Origin: Alphaproteobacteria bacterium
GTDB taxonomy: Bacteria; Pseudomonadota; Alphaproteobacteria; UBA828
DNA length: 64,000 nt
NCBI GenBank assembly: GCA_965214705.1
Contig: CBDCCI010000002.1
Span: 864,001 to 928,000 of the forward strand
Direction of reading: 5' to 3'
The notes beneath the pieces are model-generated. The model made no database searches. It saw only the letters and a list, made by a program, of their open reading frames with translations, and had not been told where the DNA came from. The position numbers and the translations under genes were made by a program. Of the stretch, positions 44,799 through 58,940 are shown one piece after another (within the stretch, counting starts at the first letter, position 1; each line of letters starts with the position of its first letter).

Positions 44799-44802
44799 GG
44801 AA

Positions 44803-45025
44803 GACCTGCTTGCACAGCTTGCCGCGACGCCCGCGGCGGGGCGCGAGGAACTCTTGGTGTCCTTCCTGCAACAGGAGGTGCAGGCGGTGCTGCGGCTGCC
44901 GTCGGCGCCGGCGCCGACGGTCGGCTTCTTCGACCTCGGCATGGATTCGCTGATGGCGGTCGAGCTGCGGAACCGCCTGAACCGGGCGTTCTCCGGCGCT
45001 TACGCGGCGCCTAACACGCTGGTGT
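44803..45025 (+). pseudogene. supA: SupA-like PKS fragment 2: most of the ACP domain
   Basis: DLLAQL...GFFDLGMDSLMAVELRNRL...APNTLV; joins fragment 1 in frame once the IS is removed. Confidence 0.92.
45015..45025 (+). repeat. attL core CACGCTGGTGT
   Basis: Identical to 58930-58940; PKS similarity stops immediately after it. Confidence 0.9.
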
Positions 45026-45375
45026 GCACTAGCCTACACGATTTTTCAGTGCTCAGGGGCTGACGCAGGGTTGCAGTTCCCTCCTTTATTCGGGTTATGC
45101 TACAGTAGGTTACAGGAGAGGTCAAGGGGAAATAGAGCGGGGGTGGAGGACACATTGGCAGATCATGTGTCTTCCAGAAGTTGCATTCAGGGAAGTCGGG
45201 GCGTGGAATTTGCCGTGGAGAACTGGTATGGTTTCTGTGCTGAGACTGGATAATTCAGTCAGGACACACGAATGGCATGCAATTGCAGTTGCGAGGAATA
45301 TCATAGGAGTTTCGTGATCTGTCCTGCATTGCGGAGGAGCCGCGTGTCGCGGTTACAGAAGGTCCCTACGGGCGG

Positions 45376-45747
45376 ATGGCCACGATGAGGGAGGATACTA
45401 GCGGACGGCGCCAGCGCGCGGTCATGGCCACCGATGCGGAGTGGGAGCGCATCGGCCGGGCTGCGGCGGCTTGCGGTATGGACCTGTCTCGCTTCGTCAT
45501 CCATCGCGCTCTCGATCGCGATCCGCTGCCGCCGGAAGTCCTGCGCCGGGCGGTCCGCGAGATGCTGGTGATGTCCAGGCTGGAGGAGAGGCGGCTACGC
45601 GGGGCGGGCGCCGGCGAGGCCTGGGAGGACGCCTGCGACGCGGTGGACGAATGGATGGAGCGCGAGAGCATGCTCGACCGGCTCACCGATCCAGGTGCTG
45701 CGAACCGCTGGAAGGCGGCGGGGCGGGTTGAGGAGGACGGGTCGTGA
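45376..45747 (+). CDS. Small ribbon-helix-helix (MobC/CopG-like) protein 1
   Basis: RQRAVMATDAEWERIGRAAAACGMDLSRFVIHRAL strand-helix-G-helix pattern. Confidence 0.65.
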   Translation: MATMREDTSGRRQRAVMATDAEWERIGRAAAACGMDLSRFVIHRALDRDPLPPEVLRRAVREMLVMSRLEERRLRGAGAGEAWEDACDAVDEWMERESMLDRLTDPGAANRWKAAGRVEEDGS

Positions 45748-46055
45748 CGGAGGAGGCGGCACGGCCGCTCAGGCGTCAGCGAAGCCTGCACTGCAAGCCG
45801 GCTGAACAGGCGATGATCCGGGAGCGCGCGGCGGCGGCGGAGAAGACCGTGTCGCGCTATATTCTGGATCTCGCGCTCGCCGACGATCCGGACCGCCATC
45901 CGCTGGTGCTGACTGAAGCGGAACAGGTGGAGCAGCGGGACGGGGTGCGGGAGTTGCAGGCATTCGTGCGGGCTCTCCGGCGCGAGCTTCCGGGGGGCAG
46001 CGGGCTGAGCCTTCTGAGCGCGATCTCCGTCCTCGCGAGGGAGCGTGCGCTGTGA
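45744..46055 (+). CDS. Small RHH-like protein 2
   Basis: RQRSLHCKPAEQAMIRERAAAAEKTVSRYILDLAL; GTGA overlap with the previous gene. Confidence 0.65.
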   Translation: MTEEAARPLRRQRSLHCKPAEQAMIRERAAAAEKTVSRYILDLALADDPDRHPLVLTEAEQVEQRDGVRELQAFVRALRRELPGGSGLSLLSAISVLARERAL

Positions 46056-46588
46056 GACGGACGCGGCGTCGGCGGAAGGCGCGCAGGCCGAGCAGGCACA
46101 TCTCGATTTCGGCGACGGACGCGGAGTGGGAGACCGTTCGCAACAAGGCCGACCAGCGCGGGCTGTCGATCGCGCGCTACCTGCTGGAGCTGGTGGAGCG
46201 GGACGGCTCGGAAGAGGACACTGGTCTCCGGCACGAGTGGCCCGCGTTGGCGCTGGCAAAGGACGAGCAGCGGGAGCAGCTGGAGGCGCTGCGGGAGGTT
46301 CGCGCGCTGATGCTGGAGGGGGAGGATGCGGGTCCGCTTGTGCGCGACATGCAGGAGAGGATCGCGGTGATGTTCGCCGCCTGGGCGTCCGCGATGGCCG
46401 GGGCGGGCCGCTCGGAAGAGCTGCGCATGGCGCTCGCCTCGGTGCTGGGCGAGGAGCGGGCACGCATCGCTGCGGCGTCGGTCGTGACCTCGGTCACGGT
46501 TTCGACCGAGCCGCCGGCAGCGAAGAAGGAGGTCGCGCCTGAGTCCCGCGAGGGAAAGGCGGACGCCGGCCAGGACCGGCTCTTGTGA
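46052..46588 (+). CDS. Small RHH-like protein 3
   Basis: RHISISATDAEWETVRNKADQRGLSIARYLLELV; GTGA overlap with the previous gene. Confidence 0.65.
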   Translation: MRRTRRRRKARRPSRHISISATDAEWETVRNKADQRGLSIARYLLELVERDGSEEDTGLRHEWPALALAKDEQREQLEALREVRALMLEGEDAGPLVRDMQERIAVMFAAWASAMAGAGRSEELRMALASVLGEERARIAAASVVTSVTVSTEPPAAKKEVAPESREGKADAGQDRLL

Positions 46589-46815
46589 GGCGGGCACCAT
46601 GTGCGCCACGGTCCCTATCGAGGTGCAGAGAATCGTCGGTACAAGGGGAGAGACAACGTGATTGCGGGATGCGGCGGCAGAAGCGAAAGGTCGCGCTTCA
46701 GGCCCACAACGGGAAGACGGACTTGCGCCTATACCGTTTGCTGTGAGGCGGCCTCCATGTGCGCCACCGGCATGAACGAGGTGCACGAGATCGACCACAC
46801 GAGGGAACAATTGTC

Positions 46816-47483
46816 GTGACTGCGGAGCGCGACGGCAAGAGCGCGTGGACCGGCCAGCCGGACTTGCTGGCGAGCCTGCCGCCGGAGGGCCCGCCCGCTT
46901 CGCGGCCGGATCCCGGTATCGATCCTGCCGTGGTCGAGGAACTGCTCACCGAAGTCCGGGTCCTGCGGGAGCAGGTGGCCGGACTGAAGGAAGCGGTATC
47001 CGCCGACCGGCCTGCGCCAGCGCCTGAGGCTGCACCTGAGGTGCTGACGCGGGAGGCGCTGGAAGCCTGGGGCGACAATCTCGTGACCCGTGTTGCCGAG
47101 GCTGCGCGGTCGGCAGACGCGCCGGCGGCCGCGCCGGGGACGACGCGGCGGCGGCGACCGTCGCAAACCATGCCGGCAGGATCGAGGAAGCGGCGGCGAA
47201 GGCGGCAGCGGCGGCGGAACGCATCGATCGGGGTATGGCAACCACTGCGGACCGGGTCGCGGCCGGGGTCGAGGAGGCCGCGGCCAGGATCGAAAAGGGC
47301 CTCGCAGCGACGCGCTCCCAGGTCATCGACCATTCCGGTTCTATCCGTGGGCTTCTCTATGACGTCCTCACGCAAACGGCCGGACCGAAGTTCGGCTTGA
47401 AGACGGTTCTTGTGGGCTTGATCGTCTTCGTTCTGGGCATGCTGCTCGAGAGCCACATACATCTGCTCTACCGATGGCAGTGA
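46816..47483 (+). pseudogene. Coiled-coil protein with C-terminal TM helix, frameshifted at a G4 run (47136-47139)
   Basis: GAGGGA RBS plus GTG at 46816; adding one G joins ...AAPG to DDAAAATVANHAGRIEEAAAK...GLIVFVLGMLL. Confidence 0.6.
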
Positions 47484-47558
47484 GCCCGGTGAGCCTGCGG
47501 CGTCCCGCCTGTCCGCCACTGCCGCGCACCGGCGCGGCCGTAATCGGGGTCTGAGCCG

Positions 47559-50500
47559 ATGGTCGCCACGGTCGTCGAGCTTCGTTCGTCCGCCATGGCG
47601 GTGACCTACTACGAGCGCGACGGCTACTACGCAAAGAACGATCCCGAGCACCGCCAGGCGAGCTTCTGGTACGGGGACGCGGCGAAGGCGCTCGGGCTCA
47701 AGGCCCATGTGCGTCCCTCGCGCTTCGAATCAGTGCTGTCGGGATACGTGCCGGGCATGGACCTGCGTCTCGGCCGGATGCGCGAGGGGGAGCACGATCA
47801 CCGGCCCGGCTGGGACATCACCCTGTCCGCGCCGAAGTCGGTATCGCTGGAGGCGCTGGTGATGGGCGACCGCCGGGTGATCCGGGCTCACGACGAGGCG
47901 GTGCGCGCGACACTCCAGTTCGTAGAGACGGACCTTCTGCAGACCCGGGGCTGGGACCCCGCGACCCGGCGCCGTCCCCGGGTGAAGGCGGAGGGCATGG
48001 TGGTGGCGGGGTTCCGCCATCTCGCGAGCCGCGACCAGGACCCCCAGCTGCACACCCACTGCGTGCTGGCCAACATGACGCGCAATGGGTCCGGGGAATG
48101 GCGGAGCGTGGAGCCGACGAAGATCCGCCGCAGCGAGAAGCTGATCGGAGCATTTTACCGGAACGAGCTTGTGCTACGTCTCCAGGCGCTCGGCATGGCC
48201 GTCTCGCCGACCCTCGTGGGACGGGTGCCGGGGTTCGAGCTTGCGGGCTACGACCGCGCCTTCCTGGACGCGTTCTCGGGCAGGCGCCGCGAGATTCTCG
48301 CGTACCTGGAGCGCCAGGACCTGTCCTACTCGGCGAAGCACACGCAGATGGCGGCGCTGCACACACGCCGGCGCAAGGAGGACAAGGGCCTCGCGGACCT
48401 GGTGCCGGAATGGCGCGAACGGGCGCGGGCACTGGGTCTGGTCCGGGAGAAGACGGCCCTCGCGCCGTCCCGGCCGCTCGACCCGGTGACCGGCGAGCGG
48501 GTGACAGTGCCGCGTGCGCCCCCACCCGACCTGCCGGCCAACGAGATCCGCAGCCTGAAGCGCGCGCCGGCGCTGCCGGCGCTGCCGAGGCAGCCCCGCG
48601 ACGGCGTTGCCGCGTCGGCGGGGGTGAATCCCACGCCCCCTCGCTCACCGGCACCGGCGGAGCTGTCGCAGGAGCCCGAGCGGGGCGTCCTGGAGGCGGT
48701 GGCGCGTGCGGTGGCGCACGTTGCGGAGAGGCGCACCGCGATCCCGGAGGCCGAGATCCGGGCGGTGGCGCTGGGCCATGCACCGGGGCGCTACACCCTG
48801 GCCGAGGTCGACGGGGCGATTTCACGGCTGGTGTCCGGGGGCGAGCTGATCGAGGCGGAACGCCGGGGCATGGACCGGGCCTTCGTCACCGACCGCGCGG
48901 TGAAGGCCGAACGCCAGGTGCTGGCGTCGATGCGGTCGGGGCGCGGCAAGCGGCCGGCGCTGGCCGGCGCGGATGCCGTGGAGGCGCGGCTCGGGGCGTC
49001 GCGTCTCACCCGGGGCCAGAGGGAGGCGGTCCGCACGGTGCTGCTGTCGAGCGATCTCACGGTCGGCGTGCAGGGCCATGCGGGCAGCGGCAAGACCACC
49101 ATGCTGAGGGAGGTGAAGGCGCTTCTCGGAGGCAGGACGATACAGGGCCTCGCGCCCTCGGCCGCCGCCGCCCGGGTTCTCGCCAGAGAGGCGGACATCC
49201 CGTCCAGGACGCTGCAGCACTTCCTGACCCGCTTCAACGATCTCTCCGACCCGGCGCGGCTGGCGCGGGGCCGTGAGGAGTACGGGGGCGCGGTGCTGGC
49301 GGTAGACGAGGCGTCGATGATCGACACCGTGCGCATGGAGGCGCTGCTGCGCATCGCGCGCGATCTGAATGTCGCGCGGGTGGCGCTGGTGGGCGACACC
49401 GCGCAGCTGAAGGGGGTGGATGCGGGCCAGCCCTTCCGTCTGCTGCAGAAGGCGGGCATGGCGACGGCGACCATGGACGAGGTGCTGCGCCAGCGCGACC
49501 CGGAGCTGCGCGCGACGGTGGGTCTTGCCCGGGAGGGGGAGCCGGGCGCGGCGATCGCGGCGCTGGGCAACCGGGTGCGCGAAGCACGGCGCGAGGAGCT
49601 CGGCATCGAGGCGGCGCGGCGCTGGCTCGCGCTGGCGCCGGAGGACCGCGCGGACACCCTGATCCTCGCGCCGACGCACGCGATCCGCCGGCAGGCAAAC
49701 GAGGCGGTGCGCGAGGGGCTCGCGGAGGAAGGCGTGCTGAGGAGCCGCACGCTCGCCGTCGACCGCCTGGTTGACCGGCGGCTCACCCGTGCGCTGGCTT
49801 CCGATATCCGCAGCTACGAGCCCGGAGACACCATAGTGTTCCACCGCGACGTCTTCGGCTGCCGCGCGAACGACGTCTGCACCGTCATGGGCTACGACGG
49901 CGGCAGGGTCGTATTGGCCCACGCCGAGGGCGAGCGCCGGTTCCGGCCCTCGGGCAATGCGGCGCGCTATCTGGGCCTCTACGACACCGAGCGGATCGAG
50001 CTGCGCGCCGGCGACCTGATCCGCTGGACGCGCAACCGCAAGGCCCCGCCCGGCCGCGGCAGGCATCCCCGGGGGCCGGACCTGGTCAACGGCGGCGAGG
50101 CGGAGATCGTGGAGATCGGCTACAGGCGGGTGCGCTTCCGCGAGGGCGGCCGGGAGTTCGGTCTTGCGCTTACCGACCCGCAGCTGCGCCATCTGGATCA
50201 TGCCTACTGTTCCACCGTGCATTCTGCGCAGGGCCGGACGGCGCGGGCGGCGATCGCGGTGCTGGACGCGGGCGCCGGGGCCGACCGCGAGCTGTTCCAT
50301 GTCGAGCTCAGCCGGGTCTCGGAAGAGTTCCTGCTGCTGACCGACGACCGCGACGCGCTGATCGAGAGCATGGCATACGACCGGAGCGAGGACGGGGCGC
50401 TGGAGGCGCTGGGGATCGACCTCTCCGAGCCCCCCGTGGTGGACCCCGAAGAGTTCGCGGTGCTGGCGAGCGACTGGCAGGCGCTCCTGCGGGAGGGCGA

Positions 50501-52337
50501 GGCGGCGAACACCGTTCCGTTCCTCCTCCCGGGCTACCGGGACACGATGGCCCAGGCTGCTGCGCTCGCGCAGATCGAGGACCTGCCGGAGGACATGCGC
50601 CGCCTCACCGGCACCATGCTGGCGAAACACGAGCAGCATCTCGCGCACGACCGCGAGGTGCAGGGCCTCGTCGGGCGCGTGCGCGACCACTGGCGGCGCT
50701 GGCCGGAGCTCGGTTGGGCTGCCTCCTCGCAAGGAGTGCCGGTGGAGGAGCTTCCCGCACACGCTGCTTGGCGCGAGGAAGGGGCGGCGCTCCTGGAGGC
50801 CGCAGCCCGGCTCGGGGCGGACGGCGAGGCAGCACCCCATCTGCATGCCATGCCTGGCGGGCGCGCCGGCCTGGAAGACGCCGTCGATATGCTCGAACGC
50901 ACGCGGCTCCTCGACGATGCCGGACGGTTCGAACGGGCGTGGCACGCGCTCCGCGAACGGGCTGCGGAGAGCGTCATCCCGGAGATTTACGCGCCGGGCT
51001 ACCGGCAGGTGGCGCAGCTTGGCGAGAATCTCGCGGCCGCCGAGAGGCTCGACGCGCAGGCCCAGCGCGCGGTGGCGGAATGGCGGGAGGTCGATGCGGC
51101 GCAGACGGCGCTGGCGGACGAGGTGCGCACCCTGCCCGGCCGCATCGCGGCGTGGCAGGCGGTGGTCCTGCCACAGGACGAGCCCGGCGGGCTCGAGCCG
51201 GACCATCCCGCGCGCCTCGCTTGGCGCGAGGAAGGCGCCGCACTGGAGGCCATGGCCGGGGACATGCTGCGCCCGGAAGACGTCCATGCGCCCTACCTGG
51301 ACGCCGAGCCGGATGCGCGCGAGGCCGTCCGGCAGGCGGCCGAAGAAGTCGCCGACTCGCTCCGGCACGACCGCTACCGGGCATTCGGGTGGCTGACGAA
51401 GGAGGTAAACCGGCAGGCGCGAGAAACCGGAACCGAGGCGTTCCATGTGCCGCGCTACGGCGAGATGATCGCACAGGCCGAGGCGCTCTCCGCGCAGGCG
51501 GCGCTGCCGGCGCGCACGCAGGAGGTTGTCGCCTCGTGGCTCGACTACCATGCCCGGTGCGAACCGGTCTGCCGGCAGATCCGGGAATGGCCCGCACGGC
51601 TTGACGCGCTGACGGCGGACTGCCCCGAACGCCCCGCGAGGCTCGTGTCCCTGACCGAGTGGCGCCAGCAGGCGGAGCCCCTGCTCGCCGATGCCCGTGC
51701 GATGCTGGCAAACGACGCCCCCCACGCGCCCCATCTGGCAGCCATGCCGGACGAGCGCAAGGCGCTGGCCGAGGGAACGAACCGCCTCGACCGCGAACTG
51801 ATTGAGGTCGAGGCACGGGAGACGGACGTGCTGTCTTCGGTCGTGCAGCAGTGGGCGGAGAAGACGGGCGGTATCGGCTTCGATAGCCGCGACTATGCCG
51901 CGCTGATGGAGCGCGCACGCTCCCTCGATGCCAGGCCGCATCTGCCGGAGGGTCTGCGCGAGAGGGTCGACGTCCTTCTCTTCAGGGACGAACGCTGGGC
52001 GATCGACCGGGATCGGGTCGAAGCATTCCTCGAGCGGGCTGCGGAGGCCGAGAGTGCGCGGCAAGTCATGACGCAGCAGCGCGTCACGACCAACTCGTTC
52101 GAGGAGCGTCGACAGGCCCGGCGAGACTGCCGGCAGAAGGAGAAGGAGGTTCTCGACGAGGCGGCGGCAATCAGGAAGGACATGCCGCAACACGAGCTCG
52201 CCGCCCATCTGGGCGCCGCCGGCGCAGGCCCGGACGCGGTCCAAAAGCGCGAAGAGGAGATCCGCAACAGGATCGCCCGGGAACAGGAAAAGCAGGCCGC
52301 CCTGCGAATGAGCCGGGACCGGGGAATGTCGATGTAA
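47559..52337 (+). CDS. MOBF relaxase-helicase (TrwC/TraI-like) with repetitive C-terminal extension
   Basis: YYERDGYY, DITLSAPKSVS, HLASRDQDPQLHTH (3H), Walker A GHAGSGKTT, VDEAS, TVHSAQGRT. Confidence 0.95.
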   Translation: MVATVVELRSSAMAVTYYERDGYYAKNDPEHRQASFWYGDAAKALGLKAHVRPSRFESVLSGYVPGMDLRLGRMREGEHDHRPGWDITLSAPKSVSLEALVMGDRRVIRAHDEAVRATLQFVETDLLQTRGWDPATRRRPRVKAEGMVVAGFRHLASRDQDPQLHTHCVLANMTRNGSGEWRSVEPTKIRRSEKLIGAFYRNELVLRLQALGMAVSPTLVGRVPGFELAGYDRAFLDAFSGRRREILAYLERQDLSYSAKHTQMAALHTRRRKEDKGLADLVPEWRERARALGLVREKTALAPSRPLDPVTGERVTVPRAPPPDLPANEIRSLKRAPALPALPRQPRDGVAASAGVNPTPPRSPAPAELSQEPERGVLEAVARAVAHVAERRTAIPEAEIRAVALGHAPGRYTLAEVDGAISRLVSGGELIEAERRGMDRAFVTDRAVKAERQVLASMRSGRGKRPALAGADAVEARLGASRLTRGQREAVRTVLLSSDLTVGVQGHAGSGKTTMLREVKALLGGRTIQGLAPSAAAARVLAREADIPSRTLQHFLTRFNDLSDPARLARGREEYGGAVLAVDEASMIDTVRMEALLRIARDLNVARVALVGDTAQLKGVDAGQPFRLLQKAGMATATMDEVLRQRDPELRATVGLAREGEPGAAIAALGNRVREARREELGIEAARRWLALAPEDRADTLILAPTHAIRRQANEAVREGLAEEGVLRSRTLAVDRLVDRRLTRALASDIRSYEPGDTIVFHRDVFGCRANDVCTVMGYDGGRVVLAHAEGERRFRPSGNAARYLGLYDTERIELRAGDLIRWTRNRKAPPGRGRHPRGPDLVNGGEAEIVEIGYRRVRFREGGREFGLALTDPQLRHLDHAYCSTVHSAQGRTARAAIAVLDAGAGADRELFHVELSRVSEEFLLLTDDRDALIESMAYDRSEDGALEALGIDLSEPPVVDPEEFAVLASDWQALLREGEAANTVPFLLPGYRDTMAQAAALAQIEDLPEDMRRLTGTMLAKHEQHLAHDREVQGLVGRVRDHWRRWPELGWAASSQGVPVEELPAHAAWREEGAALLEAAARLGADGEAAPHLHAMPGGRAGLEDAVDMLERTRLLDDAGRFERAWHALRERAAESVIPEIYAPGYRQVAQLGENLAAAERLDAQAQRAVAEWREVDAAQTALADEVRTLPGRIAAWQAVVLPQDEPGGLEPDHPARLAWREEGAALEAMAGDMLRPEDVHAPYLDAEPDAREAVRQAAEEVADSLRHDRYRAFGWLTKEVNRQARETGTEAFHVPRYGEMIAQAEALSAQAALPARTQEVVASWLDYHARCEPVCRQIREWPARLDALTADCPERPARLVSLTEWRQQAEPLLADARAMLANDAPHAPHLAAMPDERKALAEGTNRLDRELIEVEARETDVLSSVVQQWAEKTGGIGFDSRDYAALMERARSLDARPHLPEGLRERVDVLLFRDERWAIDRDRVEAFLERAAEAESARQVMTQQRVTTNSFEERRQARRDCRQKEKEVLDEAAAIRKDMPQHELAAHLGAAGAGPDAVQKREEEIRNRIAREQEKQAALRMSRDRGMSM

Positions 52338-52793
52338 GCGTGGAACGCAGCAGGCGCAGACCGCCGCGTCCGTGCGGACCGCAGGCCATGGTGTCGAGGC
52401 GGGGCGCCGTTCCGATTCGTGGCGGCCTTCTGACTCGCAGGGGAACAACTTGTGGCATATGTCCTCATGTACAGGGACGTGTGAGCGTGCTGATTATCGG
52501 TGGTTCGTTCCCGAGTGTTTCACGTCTCCGCATAGCCACTCTGCCATCTGGCCTCGCCCATTCAGTCGACGGTCTCCTTGGCCAGACCTTCGCCCTCGCC
52601 TATCATCACTCTCATTTACGACTCGTGGGCAGCCCGCTTCGCCGGGTCGCCCGCCAAATACAGCGGCCCTAGACCCGGCACGGGGTAGCCCTTGGTGCTT
52701 GGCAAATTGGCGGGACCTCACGTGACCCACGTGTCGTAAGCACGGCCCGGCACCAGTGCCGGGTCGAAACAACGAATGACGCGAGGTACGGCT

Positions 52794-53237
52794 ATGAGGA
52801 CTCTCGTGTACGCCGCTGCGGTCGCGTCTCTGTTCGCGGGGAGCGCTGCCGCCGGGCCGTGCGACGAGGCCGAGCGCGGTACCTACCTGAGCAACGTCTG
52901 CTGGCTAGTCAATACTCACGCGAACAATAGAGTATTCGTTTACGAGAGAAGCATAATCGAGGCCAACGAAGAAAATTGCACGATCACGCTCGTGAGAAAC
53001 CAGGACGACGACAATCCGCTGAAGATCTACTTCAATCGAGCAAATCTGCGGGACATTGAGACGCGCATCGTTGATGGTAAGAACTGTCTCTATCTTTATG
53101 GAGAAGAGCTTGTAGAGGAAACGCGCGGATACGGCGAATACGTCGCATTCTGCGGTCGTAAATCAATGGAGCGCGTTGAAGCCGCCGCGGTCAACCTCTA
53201 CGCAAAGTACTGCACGGGAAGGGTGTCGGAGTTCTGA
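52794..53237 (+). CDS. Small secreted Cys-containing hypothetical protein
   Basis: Signal peptide MRTLVYAAAVASLFAGSAAA; six Cys in the mature part. Confidence 0.7.
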   Translation: MRTLVYAAAVASLFAGSAAAGPCDEAERGTYLSNVCWLVNTHANNRVFVYERSIIEANEENCTITLVRNQDDDNPLKIYFNRANLRDIETRIVDGKNCLYLYGEELVEETRGYGEYVAFCGRKSMERVEAAAVNLYAKYCTGRVSEF

Positions 53238-53355
53238 ATGGACCCAGACATGATGATGGAGATGAAGCTCGTGCGAGAGCGAGACGAGGTAGCGGTTGCG
53301 AGCATTTCACCATCGTCTATGTTCTCTTCTACCTTTTCACAGAAAGGACGCAACA

Positions 53356-54153
53356 ATGACACAACCGGAGTTAGGACCAGCATGCCGCGCTGTATCCCAA
53401 CTGTGGGATGACGCTGTGCAGATGTTTCTGGATAGTGGTGAACGGCCGCCGCATCTTGATTCGTGGTTTCGGTCTTACCGGGGCGGCGGTAAAGGCGCTG
53501 TTGAACGAAACGCCATGCCTGAACCATTTCTGGGTTCGCTGGCGACCAAGCCGAGGGGTGTTATCCTCGCTCTAAATCCTGGAAAGGCCGATCTTTGCTT
53601 CCAGGGACGCACCGGCATCTTCGCTGACGAGATTCGGACCAACGGCGGCTCTTACACGAGGTGGGCAGCATCGTGGCCTTATTTCCGGGAGGCGTGGATC
53701 GAACGAAAGCGGCGGAACCAACATCATGAGAGGCGCCTCCAGTTCATTCGCAACTGGCTTGACGACCAAGAGTTGTCGCATAGCGCGATGGTCTCCTTCG
53801 AACTGTACCCTTGGCACAGCGATCGTTTCTCCGGCAGACTGGATTGCGAGGCCGCAGGCAAGTTCTTTGCGGGTCATATACGGGACGCCCTTGTGGAACT
53901 CGACGCACCCGTATTCGCCTTCGGCGCGCGATGGTTTCCGATCCTCAAACACGCGCGGTCCGGTCTTGAGGTTGACGAACGGCTGGATGGAGAACGGCCA
54001 TATTGCAGCTGTGTGGCAAGCCGCAGGGTTATGCTCCTACGAGGAGACGGCGGGCTAAATGTGATCGCGGTCAAGCAAATGGGGTATGCGGGTCCACCGA
54101 GCCGCGACGAGACCCTCCGGTTGCGCGATGTTGTGACCGACATCTGCTCCTGA
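53356..54153 (+). CDS. UDG-superfamily protein resembling anti-phage DNA glycosylase Brig1
   Basis: PEPFLG, ILALNPG, FQGRTGIFADEI, WAASWPY, FELYPWHS, VFAFG; 265 aa; AAAGGA RBS; family assignment from memory of motifs. Confidence 0.7.
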   Translation: MTQPELGPACRAVSQLWDDAVQMFLDSGERPPHLDSWFRSYRGGGKGAVERNAMPEPFLGSLATKPRGVILALNPGKADLCFQGRTGIFADEIRTNGGSYTRWAASWPYFREAWIERKRRNQHHERRLQFIRNWLDDQELSHSAMVSFELYPWHSDRFSGRLDCEAAGKFFAGHIRDALVELDAPVFAFGARWFPILKHARSGLEVDERLDGERPYCSCVASRRVMLLRGDGGLNVIAVKQMGYAGPPSRDETLRLRDVVTDICS

Positions 54154-54486
54154 TCCGGCCCGCCGCAGCTCTCATGCTGCTAACAACGAGGACCTCAAGA
54201 ATCCCCTGGCGGCACCCCCGGATCGCGAAATAGACTATAGCGCTCGTAGGCCGAATAGGGGTCTGGATTGAATGCTGACTGACAGTGTAGCGCTACACCG
54301 ACAAACAAAATGTGCGCAGCCTGTGGCGTTCGGAGATCTGCCGCTGGCGATGGTGCTTCACGTTCGAGAGACCGCTCTGGGTCGGAAGATCGCGAAGATC
54401 AGCTTGACTTCAAGCGCCCCGTTACGAAGACTTGCGAAGCTCAGTACTCGACTTCAGCCGCCCTTCCGGAATCAGAGAGGCCCCTC

Positions 54487-55341
54487 TTGGCAAAAGGTAA
54501 CAACGGAAACTACCTACAGCATTGCGTTGAAGTCGAATCGGCGGCGCTTCTTGCGCAGATAAGTCCCAACCGCATGCTCCATGTCGCGCTGACGCATGGC
54601 ATGGCACCGTTCGAGCAGATCGGCGAACCCAACGGCAATGCCTACTGTCTCCTTTACGGTACGTTGTGCGAGGCTGCTGGCGAATCCAAATGCAACGAAC
54701 GGAAGATTGTGAAGGCGTATAGGGTGTCATGAAAATGGCACGGATACCAGCCTGACATTGCGAATCTGTTCGATGACTTGAAGACGGAAAAGCACTACCC
54801 CAACTCCGCGGAGCTATTACGCACGATCATTGGAACAAACCGGTTATCCGGTAGTATAACGGACCGAGATAAGGCTAAGTGCAAGGAACTTGCAGCGGCT
54901 TGGGCCGATTCAGGAATTGTTGTCGCCCGATCGTTATGGCGCAAGCAACTGAATCCGGGCGGCGCGCTGAGCTGCCCGGACCATCTGGATGCGCCTTGGC
55001 TGTTTTCCATGGACCCGATGACCTATTCGGAAAACGGCGACAACGATGATGCGTATCTGCATCGCTCAGATTTAGACCTGCTGGCACCTGCGCTTGAACA
55101 ATACGTCTGCAGCGGCCAGCCCGGCATTGCATCTCTGTTCGTGTACGGTGTAGGTAGCCACGCGAACCGACAACGCCAATTCTGGGCATTCATGGACGAA
55201 CTGGCTAAGCGGCTGGGTTTGCAGACTCTTTCCTATAGGACTGCCCATCGCGGTGGAAATCTCAATTTGGCTGGCTTGTTGTGTTCAGATCACCAACTGG
55301 CTGTAGGCTTTGATCTTCCTGACCTTAAGGAAGGCCGATGA
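54487..55341 (+). pseudogene. Divergent RlmJ-like SAM-dependent methyltransferase interrupted by an in-frame TGA at 54730-54732
   Basis: ORFs 54310-54732 and 54778-55341 share a frame; motifs GNNGNYLQH, ALTHG, HYPNS, SMDPMTY. Confidence 0.5.
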
Positions 55342-55392
55342 GGGCAGAATAATCGTGTCGGCACGCACGATGTTTTTCCAAGTATCGCGAAC

Positions 55393-56358
55393 ATGAGGAT
55401 GCAGTTGGCTATATATACGAACCTGAGCGCTGCGTGCAGGTGGAATCCATGGAGGGCGTTTTCCGAGCAGTTGAGGCGAGCAGCCCTTCTTCTTACCTTG
55501 CTGTTCCTCGTGCTCGAAGGCGCAGCGGCGGAAGAGGGTGCTGGAAGCGAACCTCCTTACGGCAGCGAGGAACTCGCACGACAGGCCGCAGATTGGGATG
55601 TGTTCAACAGCGGGATCCAGCAAGAGTTGCGTCTGCTAGTCGATAAAGGTCTTATTGACAAAGAAGCTTTCAACCCGGCCCCATCTACGTCGTCGAAATG
55701 GTGGGACGAACAGGGGACGAAAGGCAAAGCGTTACGAGCTCGCATCGTCCGTAAGCTTAGGGCTAATCCCTTAATGGAAGGCGCGTCGAACTTAAGCCTG
55801 TGGTTTATGGTGGGGCTCCTGGAACAAGGCGCCCGCGTTAGAGCAACGGTTAAAGACCTAAAGGTCAAGTCCCCAAATAACGCTCCCTTTGCGAGCGGTT
55901 TTGGTCCTGGAAGCGAGCGTGAGCGGTTTGGTCTGTGGACAGAGTGTAGGCCGCTATGGCCCGAACTGTTTTTGAATTCGAAAGATGACAATTTCGAGGT
56001 TTCGATCCGCGCCGCGGTGGAGAGCAGGCTACGTGGGGCGAGGCTCTATGGCGGCTTGACGAGGAGCAGTACGGGCGAGGACTTCGTCCCCAGCGGCGAA
56101 CCTCTGCAAGTTGTAGTGAACCTCGGCAGCGGCTTGTTTAGCGTTAGCGTGGGACTGCAAAAGCGCCTGTTTGATCCGATTACAGGGTTGCGGAGTTTTG
56201 CTTACGCGGATTATGGCGGCGGAGGCTATAGCAGTTTCGGTGCCGGTCCGCCGGAATTCGTGCATTCCGTACTCTCCGACCACTTGGATAGGTTTATCGC
56301 CGACTACCTGCGCGTCAACGCGGACGCGTGCGGCGGTCCGTCGGAGGTGGCGAAGTGA
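55393..56358 (+). CDS. Hypothetical protein, probably exported
   Basis: LRRAALLLTLLFLVLEGAAA signal-like segment (start may be TTG at 55471); C-terminal ESRLRGARLY...YLRVNADAC block. Confidence 0.65.
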   Translation: MRMQLAIYTNLSAACRWNPWRAFSEQLRRAALLLTLLFLVLEGAAAEEGAGSEPPYGSEELARQAADWDVFNSGIQQELRLLVDKGLIDKEAFNPAPSTSSKWWDEQGTKGKALRARIVRKLRANPLMEGASNLSLWFMVGLLEQGARVRATVKDLKVKSPNNAPFASGFGPGSERERFGLWTECRPLWPELFLNSKDDNFEVSIRAAVESRLRGARLYGGLTRSSTGEDFVPSGEPLQVVVNLGSGLFSVSVGLQKRLFDPITGLRSFAYADYGGGGYSSFGAGPPEFVHSVLSDHLDRFIADYLRVNADACGGPSEVAK

Positions 56359-56543
56359 TTGTTTGGACGGAATGCTACAGACGGTAGCATAAAGGATGAT
56401 TACAGCACGAGATGTCACTCGTTTGTTCCCGCCACGGTCTTTCGCGCCACCGCATGCCAAGCGCCTTATCCATACTTTGCGAGAGCAGGCAGCTTAATGA
56501 CTCTCAGATCGTGGTGCGGGTCGGAGAACGTCGTTCCCGCAAC

Positions 56544-57689
56544 CTACAACCCCATGATGTTTGCGATGGCCCGGCCCACCCTCTCCGCGGCGTTCTCGAT
56601 ATCCCGGTCCCCGAGGTGAGCGTAGCGCAGCGTCATGCGTACGTTGGAGTGGCCGAGCAGCCGGGAGACTACCGGCACCGGCACGCCGTTCATCACCGCG
56701 TGGCTCGCCACGGTATGACGCAGGTCATGAAGGCGCACGTCCTCGATGCCGGCTTCACGCCGCACCCGGTACCAGAGAGCGAGATAGCGGCTGCGCGGCC
56801 GCGACGGGTCGCGCGGCGAGGGAAAGACGAAGGGGCTTGTCCCGCGCGGCTGACGCCCGAGAACCGCGCGGGCCTTGGTGTTGAGAGGAACCGTCCTCCG
56901 GCCCGTCTTGCTTTCCTGGAGGATCAGGCGGTGGTCGTCGACTTCCGACCAGCGGAGCTGCACGATCTCGCCCCTGCGGCACCCGGTCAGAAGCAGCAGG
57001 CGGACGATGTCGGCCTGCTGCCGCTGGTCGCTTCCCGTTTGTCGGTCAAGCGCGCGGTGCAGACGATCGACTTCCTTGCGCGACAGGAAGCGGGTGAGCA
57101 CCGGGCGCCGGTTTCTCTGTATGTCGCGGGCCGGGTTGGTGTCGATGTGGCCGCGGGCGGCGGCGAAGTTCAGGATCTGCCGCAGGAGGGCGAGACCGTG
57201 ATTGGCGTTGCCGGGGGCGGTGCGGCTGAAGTCGTCGAACCAGCGTCTGATCTCGGCCGGGGAGATGCGGTCGAGCCGCTTCGAGCCGAAGGCCGGCAGG
57301 ATGCGGACGTCGAGCAGGCACCGGAAGGCACTCCTGGACGAAGGCTTGTATCTGTCGAAGTTGGCCTCCTTCCACTCGCCGGCGACAAAGTCGCGCAACA
57401 GGGGAACGGCACGCTTGGGAGCGGCCCTGTCCTCCGGTTCCGGCGCGGCCTGGCGGGCGAGGCAAGCGCGGCGCGCCTCGGCGACGCTCATGGTCTCCAC
57501 CGGGCCGAGCGAGATGCGTCTCGATCCGTCTGCGCTTTGCCGCAAGAGGACCCAGCTCTTTCCTCCGGTAGCTCGGACCCGGACCCCGAGCCCGCGCACC
57601 GTGGTATCCCAGACGGTATATTCCCGCTCGCCGGGCTGCAGCCGAGACACGGCGGCGTCGGTGATGCGCACGCGTTTCGGTCCTGCCAT
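56544..57689 (-). CDS. Tyrosine recombinase/integrase 2 with N-terminal arm-binding (DUF4102-like) domain
   Basis: WDTTVRGLGVRV...GGKSW; TGCRRGE, SKTG, HDLRHT, LLGH...LRY: all catalytic residues present. Confidence 0.95.
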   Translation of the reverse strand: MAGPKRVRITDAAVSRLQPGEREYTVWDTTVRGLGVRVRATGGKSWVLLRQSADGSRRISLGPVETMSVAEARRACLARQAAPEPEDRAAPKRAVPLLRDFVAGEWKEANFDRYKPSSRSAFRCLLDVRILPAFGSKRLDRISPAEIRRWFDDFSRTAPGNANHGLALLRQILNFAAARGHIDTNPARDIQRNRRPVLTRFLSRKEVDRLHRALDRQTGSDQRQQADIVRLLLLTGCRRGEIVQLRWSEVDDHRLILQESKTGRRTVPLNTKARAVLGRQPRGTSPFVFPSPRDPSRPRSRYLALWYRVRREAGIEDVRLHDLRHTVASHAVMNGVPVPVVSRLLGHSNVRMTLRYAHLGDRDIENAAERVGRAIANIMGL

Positions 57690-57692
57690 GGC

Positions 57693-58811
57693 TTACTCTC
57701 CTAACGCCTTTCCGACGATTTCTGCGGCATCGGCGACCATGCTGTCGGCGAGGTGCGTGTACTTGAGAGTGGTCTCGGGGCTCGCATGACCGAGCAGGCG
57801 TCCGATGGCGAGGACGGTGACGCCCTGCCTGAGTGCGATGCTGGCATGCGTGTGTCGAAGATCGTGAAGGCGCACGTCAGTCAATCCGGCCTCGGCACGG
57901 AGCCTGTGCCAGAAGTGGTCGAGCGCGCCCGGCTCGGGCGGTTGGGCTCGATGCGGGGCCGCGAACACCCAGGGACCCTTCCGCTCCAGGTCGTCGAGGA
58001 CGTCACGCGCGGGCTGCGACAGCCAGACGGTTCTGGGGCCGGACTTGCTATCGCGCAGGAAGAGGTGTCCCTCGCGGTAGTCGGACCATCGGAGGCCCAG
58101 CATCTCCCCTTTCCGGCATCCGGTCAGCAGCAGGAGGCGGATTGTTGCGACATGCCGCGGGAAGCGCTCCGCATGCGCGGACAGCTGCGCCGACAGGCGG
58201 CGAATCTCGTCGTCGGAGAGAAAACGCTCACGCCCCTTGCGGCGATAGCGCCGGATGCCCCGGCAGGGGTTGGAGCCCTCGGGCCTGAGCCCCGCCACCT
58301 CGGCCTCGCGCATGATGACCGACAGGACCGGCATCGACCTGTCGGCCGCGACCGGGGTGGCGCGGAGCGCGGCGAACCAGTCATGCACCTCGTGGCGGTC
58401 GATCTCGGCAACCGGGCGACCGGCGAAGTGAGGCAGAATCTGGTTCTTGAGATAGCGCCGGTTGACCGCCAGCGTGCGCCGCTTCCACAGTCGTTCGTAT
58501 TGCAGGAACACGGTCTCGGCGAAATCCTCGAAGAGCGTTTCCCCGGCCGCGGAATCCCCTTCACCCCGCCTGATGGCGGCGAGCATCCCGCGGGCGCGGG
58601 CGCGCGCCTCGTCAACGCCGGTCTCTGCGGCGTCACCGACGATCTTCCAGGCGCGCTCCCCGTCGTGCTGGCAATGGATGAAGAAGCGCTTGCGGCCCGA
58701 GGGCAGCACGCGGATGCCGAAGCCTTTGAGCTTGCCGTCCCGGACATCGCGGGCTGTCTTGCGGGGCCTGAGTGCCCGCACGCGGGCGTCGGTGAGGGTC
58801 GTTCCGGCCAT
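57693..58811 (-). CDS. Tyrosine recombinase/integrase 1 with N-terminal arm-binding domain
   Basis: DGKLKGFGIRVLPSGRKRF; TGCRKGE, SKSG, HDLRHT, LLGH...LKY. Confidence 0.95.
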   Translation of the reverse strand: MAGTTLTDARVRALRPRKTARDVRDGKLKGFGIRVLPSGRKRFFIHCQHDGERAWKIVGDAAETGVDEARARARGMLAAIRRGEGDSAAGETLFEDFAETVFLQYERLWKRRTLAVNRRYLKNQILPHFAGRPVAEIDRHEVHDWFAALRATPVAADRSMPVLSVIMREAEVAGLRPEGSNPCRGIRRYRRKGRERFLSDDEIRRLSAQLSAHAERFPRHVATIRLLLLTGCRKGEMLGLRWSDYREGHLFLRDSKSGPRTVWLSQPARDVLDDLERKGPWVFAAPHRAQPPEPGALDHFWHRLRAEAGLTDVRLHDLRHTHASIALRQGVTVLAIGRLLGHASPETTLKYTHLADSMVADAAEIVGKALGE

Positions 58812-58929
58812 GGCGTCTCTCCCGGCTGCGGTTGCAGCCGGGGAACGTCGGGGTAGCCGATCCGTCCGGATGCAACAGATGTGGAGAGAAAAAGCGACCC
58901 TGTTTCAGTCCATTAGCACCGAAGGTGCG

Positions 58930-58940
58930 CACGCTGGTGT
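58930..58940 (+). repeat. attR core CACGCTGGTGT
   Basis: Identical to 45015-45025; followed by TCGATTATCCG, which completes the codons for FDYP. Confidence 0.9.

What the first reader, a model, noticed from the sequence alone, without database searches (positions are those of the whole stretch)
45015..58940. Dual-integrase mobilizable element that targets the conserved ACP 'TLVFDYP' codons of a PKS and would excise seamlessly
Seen: CACGCTGGTGT occurs at 45015-45025 and 58930-58940. Joining the flanks gives AAC ACG CTG GTG TTC GAT TAT CCG (NTLVFDYP), the conserved motif at the end of type I PKS ACP domains, in frame. The reconstructed attB (CTAACAC-GCTG-GTGTTCG) and attP (GTGCGCAC-GCTG-GTGTGCAC) both have imperfect dyad symmetry around the same centre, as expected of tyrosine-recombinase core sites. 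Unlike tRNA-targeting elements, it does not replace the disrupted gene end. Inference: this is an IME family using a conserved biosynthetic-domain motif as attB. It could then hit many PKS modules, or act as an excision-controlled switch like the sigK/nifD intervening elements.
Basis: partly seen in the sequence, partly recalled or inferred. Interest (0 to 1): 0.88.

Follow-up and report, generated by a model that had tools for sequence, protein, structure and literature searches.

The report
Two-integrase mobile element splitting a PKS gene
A 13.9-kb mobilizable element with two side-by-side integrase genes really has split a polyketide synthase gene, but it belongs to a large family that inserts at many unrelated sites sharing only a short GGTGT-containing core, so the carrier-protein motif is a chance target and not a genetic switch.

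Summary
CACGCTGGTGT occurs only at 45015-45025 and 58930-58940. Joining the flanks gives in-frame NTLVFDYP. Two same-genus genomes carry exactly that uninterrupted site inside an intact 3455-aa PKS ORF. Independent assemblies span both junctions.

The 13,915-bp insert encodes three NikA-like proteins, a MobF/TrwC relaxase, low-GC cargo with a Brig1-like anti-phage glycosylase, and two tandem arm-type tyrosine integrases.

This genome holds 37 ends of the same family. All read ...TTAGCACCGnAGGTGCG-N6-GGTGT|flank. I paired 26 with left ends: repeats are N5+GGTGT, and targets share only GGTGT. Identified targets are transposase, coupling-protein, integrase, oxidoreductase and decarboxylase genes; none is an ACP. 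A relative with 90%-identical integrases sits elsewhere although its PKS site is free. The PKS gene is also broken by an IS1634-family element, so excision cannot restore it.

The interesting part is the family itself: paired elements cover at least 9.7% of the genome, and the short address drifts between near-identical copies.

The parts
35193..42638 (+). 5' part of the interrupted type I PKS gene (KS-AT-DH-cMT-ER-KR)
   Evidence: Pfam domains. Orthologues in G417 and G406 are single 3455-aa ORFs.
42639..44798 (-). IS1634-family insertion sequence (2160 bp) in the KR-ACP linker of the same PKS gene. Transposase at 42743-44698 (-). Perfect 17-nt terminal inverted repeats at 42639-42655 and 44782-44798. 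4-bp target duplication GGAA at 42635-42638 and 44799-44802.
   Evidence: Inverted repeats, sequence. DDE_Tnp_1 and NF033559 IS1634 family at 257.7 bits. Relatives read ...TCGTCGGAAGACCTG... with one GGAA.
44803..45014 (+). 5' part of the ACP domain coding region (left flank of the element)
   Evidence: PP-binding, E 3.5e-10. Continuous with the right flank in G417 and G406.
45015..45025 (+). attL core: CACGCTGGTGT, the left copy of the direct repeat
   Evidence: Family comparison suggests positions 2-11 are the meaningful identity and position 1 matches by chance (position 1 matches in 6 of 26 pairs).
45026..45375 (+). Left arm of the element (type-1 left end, GCACT...), with GTTGCAG at 45070-45076 as a candidate arm-type site
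   Evidence: Homologous left ends elsewhere in the genome. A GTTGCA-type heptamer is present in 20 of 26 left arms and 21-23 of 26 right arms. That these are arm sites is inference.
45376..46588 (+). Three small consecutive ORFs (45376-45747, 45744-46055, 46052-46588) with weak NikA-like ribbon-helix-helix matches, taken as likely relaxosome accessory proteins
   Evidence: Pfam PF21983, E 4e-5 to 9e-5, all below the gathering score. Coding-like GC3.
47559..52337 (+). MobF/TrwC-type relaxase-helicase (1592 aa)
   Evidence: TrwC 250 bits and AAA_30. NF041492 MobF 254.9 bits.
52500..56400 (+). Low-GC cargo (GC 0.54-0.58 against about 0.70): five same-strand ORFs. 53296-54153 is a Brig1-like anti-phage DNA glycosylase; the others have no family match.
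   Evidence: Composition. NF047634 Brig1, E 4e-68, 229.6 bits against a cut-off of 230. No hits in Pfam, PADLOC or PHROGs.
56544..57689 (-). IntB: the second, downstream tyrosine integrase (381 aa), with arm-binding, SAM-like/central and catalytic domains
   Evidence: Pfam. Catalytic R, K, HxxR, H and Y all present. Starts 3 nt after the intA stop (coordinates).
57693..58811 (-). IntA: the first tyrosine integrase (372 aa), same domain layout, 40% identical to IntB
   Evidence: Pfam, alignment. Thousands of unnamed relatives in metagenomes.
58812..58929 (+). Right arm: GTTGCAG at 58831-58837, inverted TGCAAC at 58871-58876, and the family-wide terminal block TTAGCACCGAAGGTGCG at 58913-58929
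   Evidence: Sequence. Conserved in 37 ends of this genome and in 73 matches in 15 other same-genus genomes.
58930..58940 (+). attR core: CACGCTGGTGT, the right copy of the direct repeat
58941..61609 (+). 3' part of the PKS gene: end of the ACP (FDYP...), a KS, and a degenerate AT (GQGAG in place of GHSLG, with an internal gap of about 70 aa), then the native stop
   Evidence: Pfam, BLASTP against the upstream module. Relatives have an uninterrupted 3455-aa ORF followed by the same hydrolase gene.
44540..44550 (+). Unoccupied CTTGTCGGTGT inside this IS copy. The same site is occupied by other dual-integrase elements in other copies of the IS.
   Evidence: Occupied copies.

Best explanation
Window 45015-58940 is a recently acquired integrative mobilizable element of 13,915 bp. 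It carries a MobF/TrwC relaxase with NikA-like accessory proteins, an anti-phage cargo, and an operon of two paralogous arm-type tyrosine integrases, intA then intB. It has no conjugative pore of its own.

It entered by conservative site-specific recombination between its attP (...TTAGCACCGAAGGTGCG-C-ACGCT-GGTGT-GCACT...) and a chromosomal sequence carrying the same 10 bases, ACGCTGGTGT. That sequence happens to encode T-L-V-(F) in an ACP domain.

The element is one of at least 37 family members in this genome. The family's rule is that the integrases need an invariant GGTGT, and that the five bases 5' of it must match the element's own copy. I infer this match is checked by base pairing in the strand-exchange (overlap) region, most likely core positions 2-8. 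Mismatches at the two bases next to GGTGT are tolerated. Imperfect integrations therefore rewrite the element's 'address', and near-identical elements end up at different sites.

The ACP motif is an incidental target. In this strain the PKS gene is simply inactivated, by this element and by an IS1634-family element upstream.

Shown: the boundaries, the empty site, the gene content, the family-wide end structure, the diversity of targets, and the second disruption. Inferred: that both integrases act together at the core, the position of the overlap, tolerance of heterology as the source of address drift, and current activity.
For: Boundaries and empty site. G417 and G406 read through with one copy of the core.

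Junctions in independent assemblies. Unique cargo depth in X1 is 63-67 against 56-83 for the flanks, so the element is single copy.

Genes.

Family size: the integrase search of the genome gave 150 matches and 111 integrase loci. By my count of the table, 27 are directly adjacent intA-then-intB pairs.

End structure: 37 right ends share TTAGCACCGnAGGTGCG-N6-GGTGT, and the sequence diverges immediately after GGTGT (reversed-pattern control 0).

Pairing of ends: 26 of 37 right ends were paired with left ends. 14 are identical at core positions 2-11. 7 have one mismatch, always at position 5 or 6. 5 have two mismatches. Position 1 matches in 6 of 26, which is about chance. Of the 17 mismatches I counted in that table, 12 lie at positions 5-6.

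Target logo: across 25 distinct attB sites only (G/C)GTGT is conserved.

Precision of insertion: reconstructed targets give long coding-like ORFs across the joint, including for mismatched pairs. Four unoccupied copies of the IS91-like target CAGGGTGGTGT|TCGACATC lie within 190 kb of an occupied one.

Address drift: IntA proteins 94-99.5% identical sit with cores differing at 1-3 of the N positions, for example CCCGGT against CCCGAT at 99.5%.

Targets: IS1634-family, IS66, IS91 and DUF772 transposases, a TrwB coupling protein, a Xer-like recombinase, another element's intA, an FAD oxidoreductase, a PLP decarboxylase, and a DruA-like protein.

Same architecture elsewhere: L011, L012 and G300. 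16 of 21 same-genus genomes and 4 of 401 class-sample genomes carry the end motif. None of the 73 matches outside G000 listed has the core CACGCT.

G417 has a 90%/89% identical IntA/IntB pair at another site with core TTAGGC, while its PKS attB is empty.

Second disruption: the IS with its GGAA duplication. Orthologous ORFs are intact at 3455 aa.
Against: No excised circle or empty-site joint was seen in the runs laid. Those were assembled contigs, which drop rare forms, so activity is neither shown nor excluded.

No excisionase-like gene was recognised.

11 of 37 right ends could not be paired with a left end, so the N5+GGTGT rule rests on 26.

Three unoccupied CACGCTGGTGT sites and further unoccupied ACGCTGGTGT sites exist in the genome. 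The 10-11-mer alone may therefore not suffice, or the element has simply moved only once.

attB shows no conserved left half-site, which is unusual for a tyrosine recombinase core and leaves the geometry of the synapse open.

The overlap position and the joint action of the two integrases are inferred from sequence patterns only.

Mismatched pairs could in part reflect recombination between different elements rather than heterologous integration.
Confidence: 0.8

Rival explanations
1. One reading: an IME family whose attB is the conserved ACP 'TLVFDYP' coding motif. It could hit many PKS modules, or serve as an excision-controlled switch like the sigK or nifD intervening elements.
For: The insertion is in frame in ACP codons, and recombination between the repeats would restore NTLVFDYP. 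The local attB has a 5-bp dyad, read directly from the sequence.
Against: None of the 25 other paired elements shows an ACP or PKS context, and the 12 identified targets are unrelated genes. L011 and L012 flanks are unrelated. G417 has a close relative of the element elsewhere and an empty PKS site. The genome has one TLVFDYP-like site only. The PKS gene carries a second, independent IS insertion. Orthologues in G417 and G406 are uninterrupted, so the insertion is strain-specific and not a conserved developmental arrangement.
Confidence: 0.03
2. Only one of the two integrases carries out integration and excision at this core. The other is a paralogue with a different job, such as directionality control, resolution of multimers, exclusion of rival elements, or recombination at another site.
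For: No separate excisionase was found, so a second integrase could take a directionality role. One case of decoupled evolution exists: IntA 93.4% but IntB 69.4% identical between two elements.
Against: Both proteins keep all catalytic residues and arm-binding domains. The order intA then intB, with a gap of a few bases, is kept in 27 pairs here and in other genomes. IntA and IntB identities mostly rise and fall together. The two half-sites of attP are unlike each other, which suits two different binders.
Confidence: 0.22
3. The element is an immobile relic. It inserted once, can no longer excise, and the repeats are only a scar.
For: No excised form or empty site appears in the laid contigs, and cargo depth equals flank depth. 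No recognisable excisionase was found.
Against: All main ORFs are intact. The repeats are perfect. The site is empty in genomes with 94-95% identical flanking DNA, so the insertion is recent. The family is clearly proliferating in this genome.
Confidence: 0.15
4. The junctions are an assembly artefact caused by repeats, not a real insertion.
For: The genome is very rich in related repeats, a setting where misjoins happen.
Against: Short-read contigs from two studies cover attL (X1) and attR (X1, X2, X5) with no differences. The insert is bounded precisely by a duplicated core whose single copy is seen in relatives. The integrase pair is at most 73% identical to any other copy in the genome, so the region is unique.
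Confidence: 0.01

Closest known systems
Integrative mobilizable elements and ICEs with lambda/P4-type arm-binding tyrosine integrases (P4 and HP1 integrases; ICE names recalled, not tested)
   Same: The integrases have an arm-binding N-terminal domain, a core-binding domain and a catalytic domain (Pfam). The closest solved relatives are HP1 and lambda Int and the Xer proteins. The element is bounded by a direct repeat shared with the target, carries a relaxase but no pore, and carries cargo.
   Different: There are two paralogous integrases in one operon instead of one. The shared core is only 10 bp, of which just GGTGT is constant. Targets are protein-coding genes of many kinds rather than a tRNA or other fixed gene end. 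There are dozens of copies per genome.
XerC/XerD
   Same: Two paralogous tyrosine recombinases would act on one core with unlike half-sites. For this element that is inference. Weak NCBIfam similarity to XerC and XerD lies far below their cut-offs.
   Different: Xer proteins, as I recall, lack arm-binding domains and act as chromosomal housekeeping enzymes at dif. Here the pair is encoded by the mobile element and has Arm-DNA-bind_3 domains.
Multi-recombinase elements: Tn554 (TnpA/TnpB/TnpC), strand-biased circularizing elements (intA-tfp-intB-srap), GInts, RIT trios
   Same: Two or more adjacent tyrosine recombinase genes, conserved termini around a short variable spacer, and several possible target sites (Background section of PMC10214605; passages of PMC3414803).
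   Different: Those elements have extra core genes (tfp and srap, ginC and ginD, tnpC), are described as non-mobilizable, and leave a different 6-bp 'fingerprint' and 'footprint' at the two ends. Here intA and intB are directly adjacent. A MobF relaxase is present in about half of the members (13 of 26 paired elements). The two ends usually carry the same 10 bases. BIM modules are one recombinase plus an unrelated protein.
CTnDOT and Tn916 integrases (tolerance of overlap heterology)
   Same: Target choice rests on a short conserved motif plus a variable stretch, and mismatches inside the exchange region are tolerated. For IntDOT I saw only the abstract listing of PMC2817482; the rest is recalled.
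   Different: Those systems use a single integrase. There the coupling sequences usually differ fully between the ends. Here 14 of 26 pairs are identical and mismatches are confined mostly to two positions.
Developmentally excised intervening elements (sigK skin, nifD element; recalled)
   Same: A gene is interrupted in frame by an element with its own recombinase, and recombination between the short repeats would restore the ORF at the joint.
   Different: The gene here has a second insertion. The interruption is absent from close relatives. The element carries transfer functions and belongs to a proliferating family.

Membership tests
Integrative mobilizable element (IME) | Encodes its own integrase(s) | tested here: met
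   Two Phage_integrase proteins with arm-binding domains. Catalytic residues are intact.
Integrative mobilizable element (IME) | Bounded by att repeats, with a single copy in the empty site | tested here: met
   11-bp repeat. One copy in G417 and G406.
Integrative mobilizable element (IME) | Relaxase and accessory genes, but no mating-pore genes of its own | tested here: met
   MobF/TrwC relaxase and NikA-like ORFs. No T4SS or coupling-protein domain among the element's ORFs scanned. None of the genome's 7 T4CP hits lies in the window.
Integrative mobilizable element (IME) | Excises as a circle and is transferred with a helper | not testable with these tools
   Only assembled contigs could be laid, and no excision joint was listed.
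   0 of 25 other paired elements shows a PKS or ACP context (12 targets identified, none a PKS or ACP), and neither L011 nor L012 does. None of the 73 listed ends in 15 other same-genus genomes has the core CACGCT.
Excision-controlled gene switch (skin or nifD type) | Recombination between the repeats restores an otherwise intact gene | tested here: not met
   The joint itself would be restored. The ORF is also cut by an IS at 42639-44798.
Excision-controlled gene switch (skin or nifD type) | The interruption is conserved at the same site among relatives | tested here: not met
   G417 and G406 have uninterrupted 3455-aa ORFs.
SE / GInt / Tn554-type multi-recombinase elements | Extra conserved core genes between or beside the recombinase genes (tfp and srap, ginC and ginD, tnpC) | tested here: not met
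   intB starts 3 nt after the intA stop, with no ORF between them. The neighbours are cargo ORFs without family matches. Homology to tfp, srap or tnpC was not tested directly because no reference sequences were at hand.
SE / GInt / Tn554-type multi-recombinase elements | Different 6-bp spacers at the two ends (footprint and fingerprint), with no empty site formed | tested here: inconclusive
   14 of 26 pairs carry identical 10-bp cores and 12 differ at 1-2 positions. The fate of the donor site cannot be seen in contigs.
XerC/XerD-like heteromeric recombinase pair | Each paralogue binds one half-site and catalyses one pair of strand exchanges | not testable with these tools
   Only indirect evidence: both proteins are catalytically complete, the half-sites are unlike, and co-occurrence is strict.

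The most novel reading that the evidence does not exclude
The dual-integrase elements are a distinct, so far undescribed class of 'address-drifting' site-specific elements. A heteromeric IntA/IntB complex would recognise only GGTGT in the target and would read a 5-base address by pairing it with the element's own overlap sequence. The centre of the overlap tolerates a mismatch, so each imperfect integration rewrites the address. A site-specific integrase system would then spread like a transposon: 37 ends, and at least 9.7% of this genome. Left (mobilization) and right (integrase) modules could also be swapped by recombination at the shared core. If this is right, the pair would be a naturally reprogrammable integrase.
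Probability: 0.35. Interest if true: 0.7.

Novelty: new variant of a known kind. Interest (0 to 1): 0.5.

Why it matters
For the original claim, the result is a correction. A conserved biosynthetic motif is not being used as a landing pad, and there is no evidence for an excision switch. A PKS gene was knocked out by two unrelated mobile elements in one strain.

What remains of interest is the family. Tandem arm-type tyrosine integrases with a fixed end structure, a target requirement of only GGTGT plus a short self-matching address, and massive amplification in one genome are not covered by any paper I could find. Public records name the proteins only generically.

The family offers a natural series of near-identical integrase pairs with different addresses. 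That makes two questions directly testable: how much of tyrosine-recombinase target choice is DNA-DNA matching rather than protein recognition, and what a second integrase adds.

The elements also carry defence cargo (a Brig1-like glycosylase here) and relaxases, so they probably move defence genes within this bacterial genus.

Tried and rejected
1. I first suspected the PKS was decaying, because the downstream AT matched only Pfam positions 9-115 of 319. I rejected this. The degenerate AT and the ORF end are native, since relatives have the same single 3455-aa ORF.

2. Left ends were first sought only as GGTGTGCAC. This missed most of them (which also crashed on an empty list). I replaced it with a search for the core itself, then BLAST with several left-end types.

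3. The first extraction of IntA and IntB by a fixed 'MAG' start found almost none. I redid it by ORF position. That analysis covers 22 elements with both ORFs intact, out of 37 ends.

4. PADLOC and PHROGs gave nothing for the cargo or the small ORFs. Pfam gave nothing for eight small ORFs in the left part of the element or two just downstream of trwC, including any Xis- or AlpA-like protein.

5. No VirB4-type ATPase (PF03135) was found in the genome at E 1e-10. Seven coupling-protein hits lie outside the window. The helper for transfer is unidentified.

6. Laying runs X1, X2, X5 and X6 listed no joint linking 45015 to 58930 and no circle joint. The listed joints have short sides (20-36 letters) and look like cross-matches between paralogues. 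These were contigs, and 31 further joints were not shown, so this says nothing about rare excision.

The IS is about 22% of the query, so they may hold only the IS. I draw no conclusion on habitat from them.

8. In G417, the element with the 90%-identical integrases showed no matching second core of 9 or more bases, and no TrwC, within 39.8 kb. Its left end was not found.

9. The 13 tandem pairs of more distant integrases (36-42% identity) do not show the same end motif upstream. I did not pursue them.

10. The literature searches found no description of this family. I read PMC3414803 (passages) and PMC10214605 (abstract and Background).

11. I did not run complex prediction on IntA and IntB. 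A pass would be expected from likeness to solved recombinase tetramers and would not separate a hetero-complex from a homo-complex.

Full report
**1. The observation**

CACGCTGGTGT occurs twice in the window, at 45015-45025 and 58930-58940. Chance expectation is 0.03, and 0 of 100 shuffles gave two matches.

The bases shown confirm the frames. The left ORF reads AAC ACG CTG GTG at 45013-45024. The right ORF reads ACG CTG GTG TTC GAT TAT CCG at 58931-58951. Deleting 13,915 bp joins them in frame as NTLVFDYP. The left fragment is a PP-binding domain. The right fragment continues into KS and AT.

**2. Direct proof of the insertion**

A search of 31 related genomes with the KS DNA found orthologues at 95% (G417), 94% (G406) and 89% (G414), with more at 74-77%.

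G417 and G406 read ...GCGCCTAACACGCTGGTGTTCGATTATCCGAA... straight through, with one copy of the 11-mer. In both, the PKS is one ORF of 3455 aa, followed by the same hydrolase and phosphopantetheinyl transferase genes.

Contigs from public runs of two studies cover attL (X1: 44799-45430) and attR (X1: 58783-60637, X2: 58678-59565, X5: 58351-59068) without differences. The depth of the unique cargo in X1 (63-67) equals that of the flanks (56-83). The insertion is therefore real, single-copy and strain-specific.

**3. Anatomy of the element**

Reading from left to right:

- a left arm;
- three small ORFs with weak NikA-like matches;
- a 1592-aa MobF/TrwC relaxase-helicase;
- a block at GC 0.54-0.58 with five same-strand ORFs, one of which matches the Brig1 anti-phage DNA glycosylase at E 4e-68, 229.6 bits against a cut-off of 230;
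- on the minus strand, intB (56544-57689) and intA (57693-58811).

Both integrases have arm-binding, central and catalytic domains. They are 40% identical to each other and keep the R, K, HxxR, H and Y residues. No mating-pore genes and no excisionase were recognised.

**4. The same PKS gene has a second insertion**

An IS1634-family element of 2160 bp lies at 42639-44798. It has perfect 17-nt inverted repeats and a GGAA duplication, and it sits in the KR-ACP linker. The relatives read through this point with a single GGAA.

The odd-looking last module has an AT with GQGAG and an internal gap. I take this as native, since relatives have the same-length uninterrupted ORF. The gene therefore has exactly two disruptions, and excision of the element alone would not restore it.

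**5. The family**

The genome is three contigs, 7.92 Mb. A search with IntA gave 150 matches. tblastn resolves 111 integrase loci. By my count of that table, 27 are directly adjacent intA-then-intB pairs at 53-75% identity to the window's pair. About 13 further tandem pairs are at 36-42% identity.

Upstream of every intA, the sequence ends in ...TTAGCACCGnAGGTGCG-N6-GGTGT and then diverges completely. There are 37 such ends (the reversed-pattern control gave 0).

Left ends come in several sequence types: GCACT..., GGTCCT..., GACAAA..., AGAAA..., GAGTCC..., GAACC... All are preceded by N6-GGTGT.

I could pair 26 right ends with left ends. The elements range from 4.2 to 94 kb, and some are nested. 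Of these pairs:

- 14 are identical at core positions 2-11;
- 7 differ at one base, always position 5 or 6;
- 5 differ at two bases.

Position 1 agrees in 6 of 26, which is about chance. The window's 11-bp repeat is therefore the family's 10 bp plus one chance match.

Of the 17 mismatches I counted in that table, 12 lie at positions 5-6. Across 25 distinct reconstructed targets, only (G/C)GTGT is conserved.

The paired elements together cover 764,479 bp, which is 9.65% of the genome.

**6. Targets**

Reconstructed targets give long, coding-like ORFs across the joint, including for pairs with a mismatch. The interrupted genes are:

- an IS1634-family transposase, hit at the same site CTTGTCGGTGT in two paired elements and at two further unpaired ends; the copy in the window carries this site unoccupied at 44540-44550;
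- IS66, IS91 (Y2) and DUF772 transposases;
- a TrwB coupling protein;
- a Xer-like recombinase;
- the intA gene of another element;
- an FAD-binding oxidoreductase;
- a PLP-dependent decarboxylase;
- a DruA-like protein.

Three further targets scanned gave no Pfam match, and the rest were not scanned. None is a PKS.

Four unoccupied copies of the IS91-like target lie within 190 kb of an occupied one. The genome has a single TLVFDYP-like coding site by my regex. It also has three unoccupied copies of the 11-mer.

**7. Other genomes**

The closest IntA found in the species collection is 90% identical (L011). It ends in GGTGCG-TTAGGC-GGTGT next to unrelated DNA. A Defluviicoccus MAG copy (L012, 73%) lies in what I read as an oxygenase-like gene.

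These copies and those of G300 have the same intA-then-intB order. G417 has the 90%/89% pair at C5:128,3xx, while its PKS site is empty.

The end motif occurs in 16 of 21 genomes of the genus. That is 73 matches outside G000, none with core CACGCT. It occurs in 4 of 401 genomes sampled from the class, one of them with 11 copies.

IntA has at least 3343 relatives at E 1e-60 among the 8000 candidates scored. All carry only generic names.

**8. Mechanism**

Shown: recombination between an attP of fixed architecture and targets that share 10 bases with it.

Inferred:

- GGTGT, invariant in element and target, is protein-recognised.
- The five bases before it are matched by pairing during strand exchange. 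They differ freely between elements, yet are the same at both ends of each element.
- Near-identical integrase pairs (94-99.5% IntA identity) carry cores differing at 1-3 of these bases. The address is therefore not protein-encoded, and it drifts.
- Mismatches cluster at positions 5-6. This fits a 7-bp overlap at about positions 2-8 whose centre tolerates heterology. After replication, one end keeps the element's base and the other keeps the target's.
- The unlike half-sites of attP (AGGTGCG on one side, GGTGT plus a variable left end on the other), the strict pairing of the two genes, and their intact active sites suggest a hetero-complex in the manner of XerC/XerD.
- GTTGCA-type heptamers in both arms are candidate arm sites.

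Three other elements share a 90-91% identical TrwC with the window's element, although two of them have integrases only about 60% identical; the third was not compared. One of them has the same ACGCTGGTGT at its left end. Modules therefore seem to be exchanged, possibly at the shared core.

**9. Comparison and verdict**

The element meets the sequence-level criteria of an IME. It is not a member of the SE, GInt, Tn554 or RIT groups as described in PMC10214605 and PMC3414803. It resembles them in using more than one tyrosine recombinase and a short variable spacer.

I found no paper describing tandem arm-type integrases with this end structure. Supplements were closed.

The finding is a new variant of a known kind, and the family-level behaviour is the part worth following up.

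Noticed in passing
window 42639-44798: An IS1634-family insertion sequence (2160 bp, perfect 17-nt inverted repeats, GGAA duplication) interrupts the same PKS ORF in the KR-ACP linker. Relatives read through with one GGAA.
   Followed up: yes
window 44540-44550: This IS copy carries an unoccupied CTTGTCGGTGT. The same site is occupied by other dual-integrase elements in other copies of the IS (right ends at G000 C1:655650, C1:3355696 and C3:2067572; left end at C3:1420737).
   Followed up: partly
window 53296-54153 (cargo 52500-56400): The low-GC cargo includes a Brig1-like anti-phage DNA glycosylase (229.6 bits against a cut-off of 230). Its four neighbouring ORFs have no match in Pfam, PADLOC, PHROGs or NCBIfam.
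   Followed up: partly
G000 C1:~360,390-360,465: The left flank of one element is a tandem array of at least six 12-nt units (TCGCGGGTGGTG-like), each containing that element's core. It could be a trace of repeated recombination or slippage at the att site.
   Followed up: no
G000, e.g. C1:469814-472121, C2:538294-540608, C3:303716-306001: About 13 further tandem pairs of arm-type integrases, only 36-42% identical to IntA, lack the same terminal motif upstream. They are possibly a second dual-integrase family.
   Followed up: partly
G000 C1:614735-654625 and C1:360465-382350: Elements are nested in one another. One is inserted in the intA gene of another (reconstructed ORF across C1:654617-655624). 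A 15.6-kb element lies inside a 21.9-kb one.
   Followed up: partly
G000 C1:1876229-1881043, C2:556977-561770, C3:1675339-1679802: Three other elements carry a TrwC 90-91% identical to the window's. Two of them have integrases only about 60% identical; the third was not compared. Mobilization and integrase modules are apparently shuffled between family members.
   Followed up: partly
window 58941-61609; L049 1785-12152; L050 1627-11994: The PKS ends with a KS plus a degenerate AT (GQGAG instead of GHSLG, with an internal gap of about 70 aa) and no final ACP. Relatives have the same-length intact ORF, so this odd architecture appears native.
   Followed up: partly
L012 1802 and 2893: In a Defluviicoccus MAG contig, two dual-integrase right ends face each other about 1.1 kb apart. 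Two elements are therefore inserted head to head.
   Followed up: no
G300: A genome of another family in the class has 11 copies of the end motif. At least five of those listed share the core TTGAGT, and three of them share the same flank. This looks like a second, independent burst into a repeated target.
   Followed up: no
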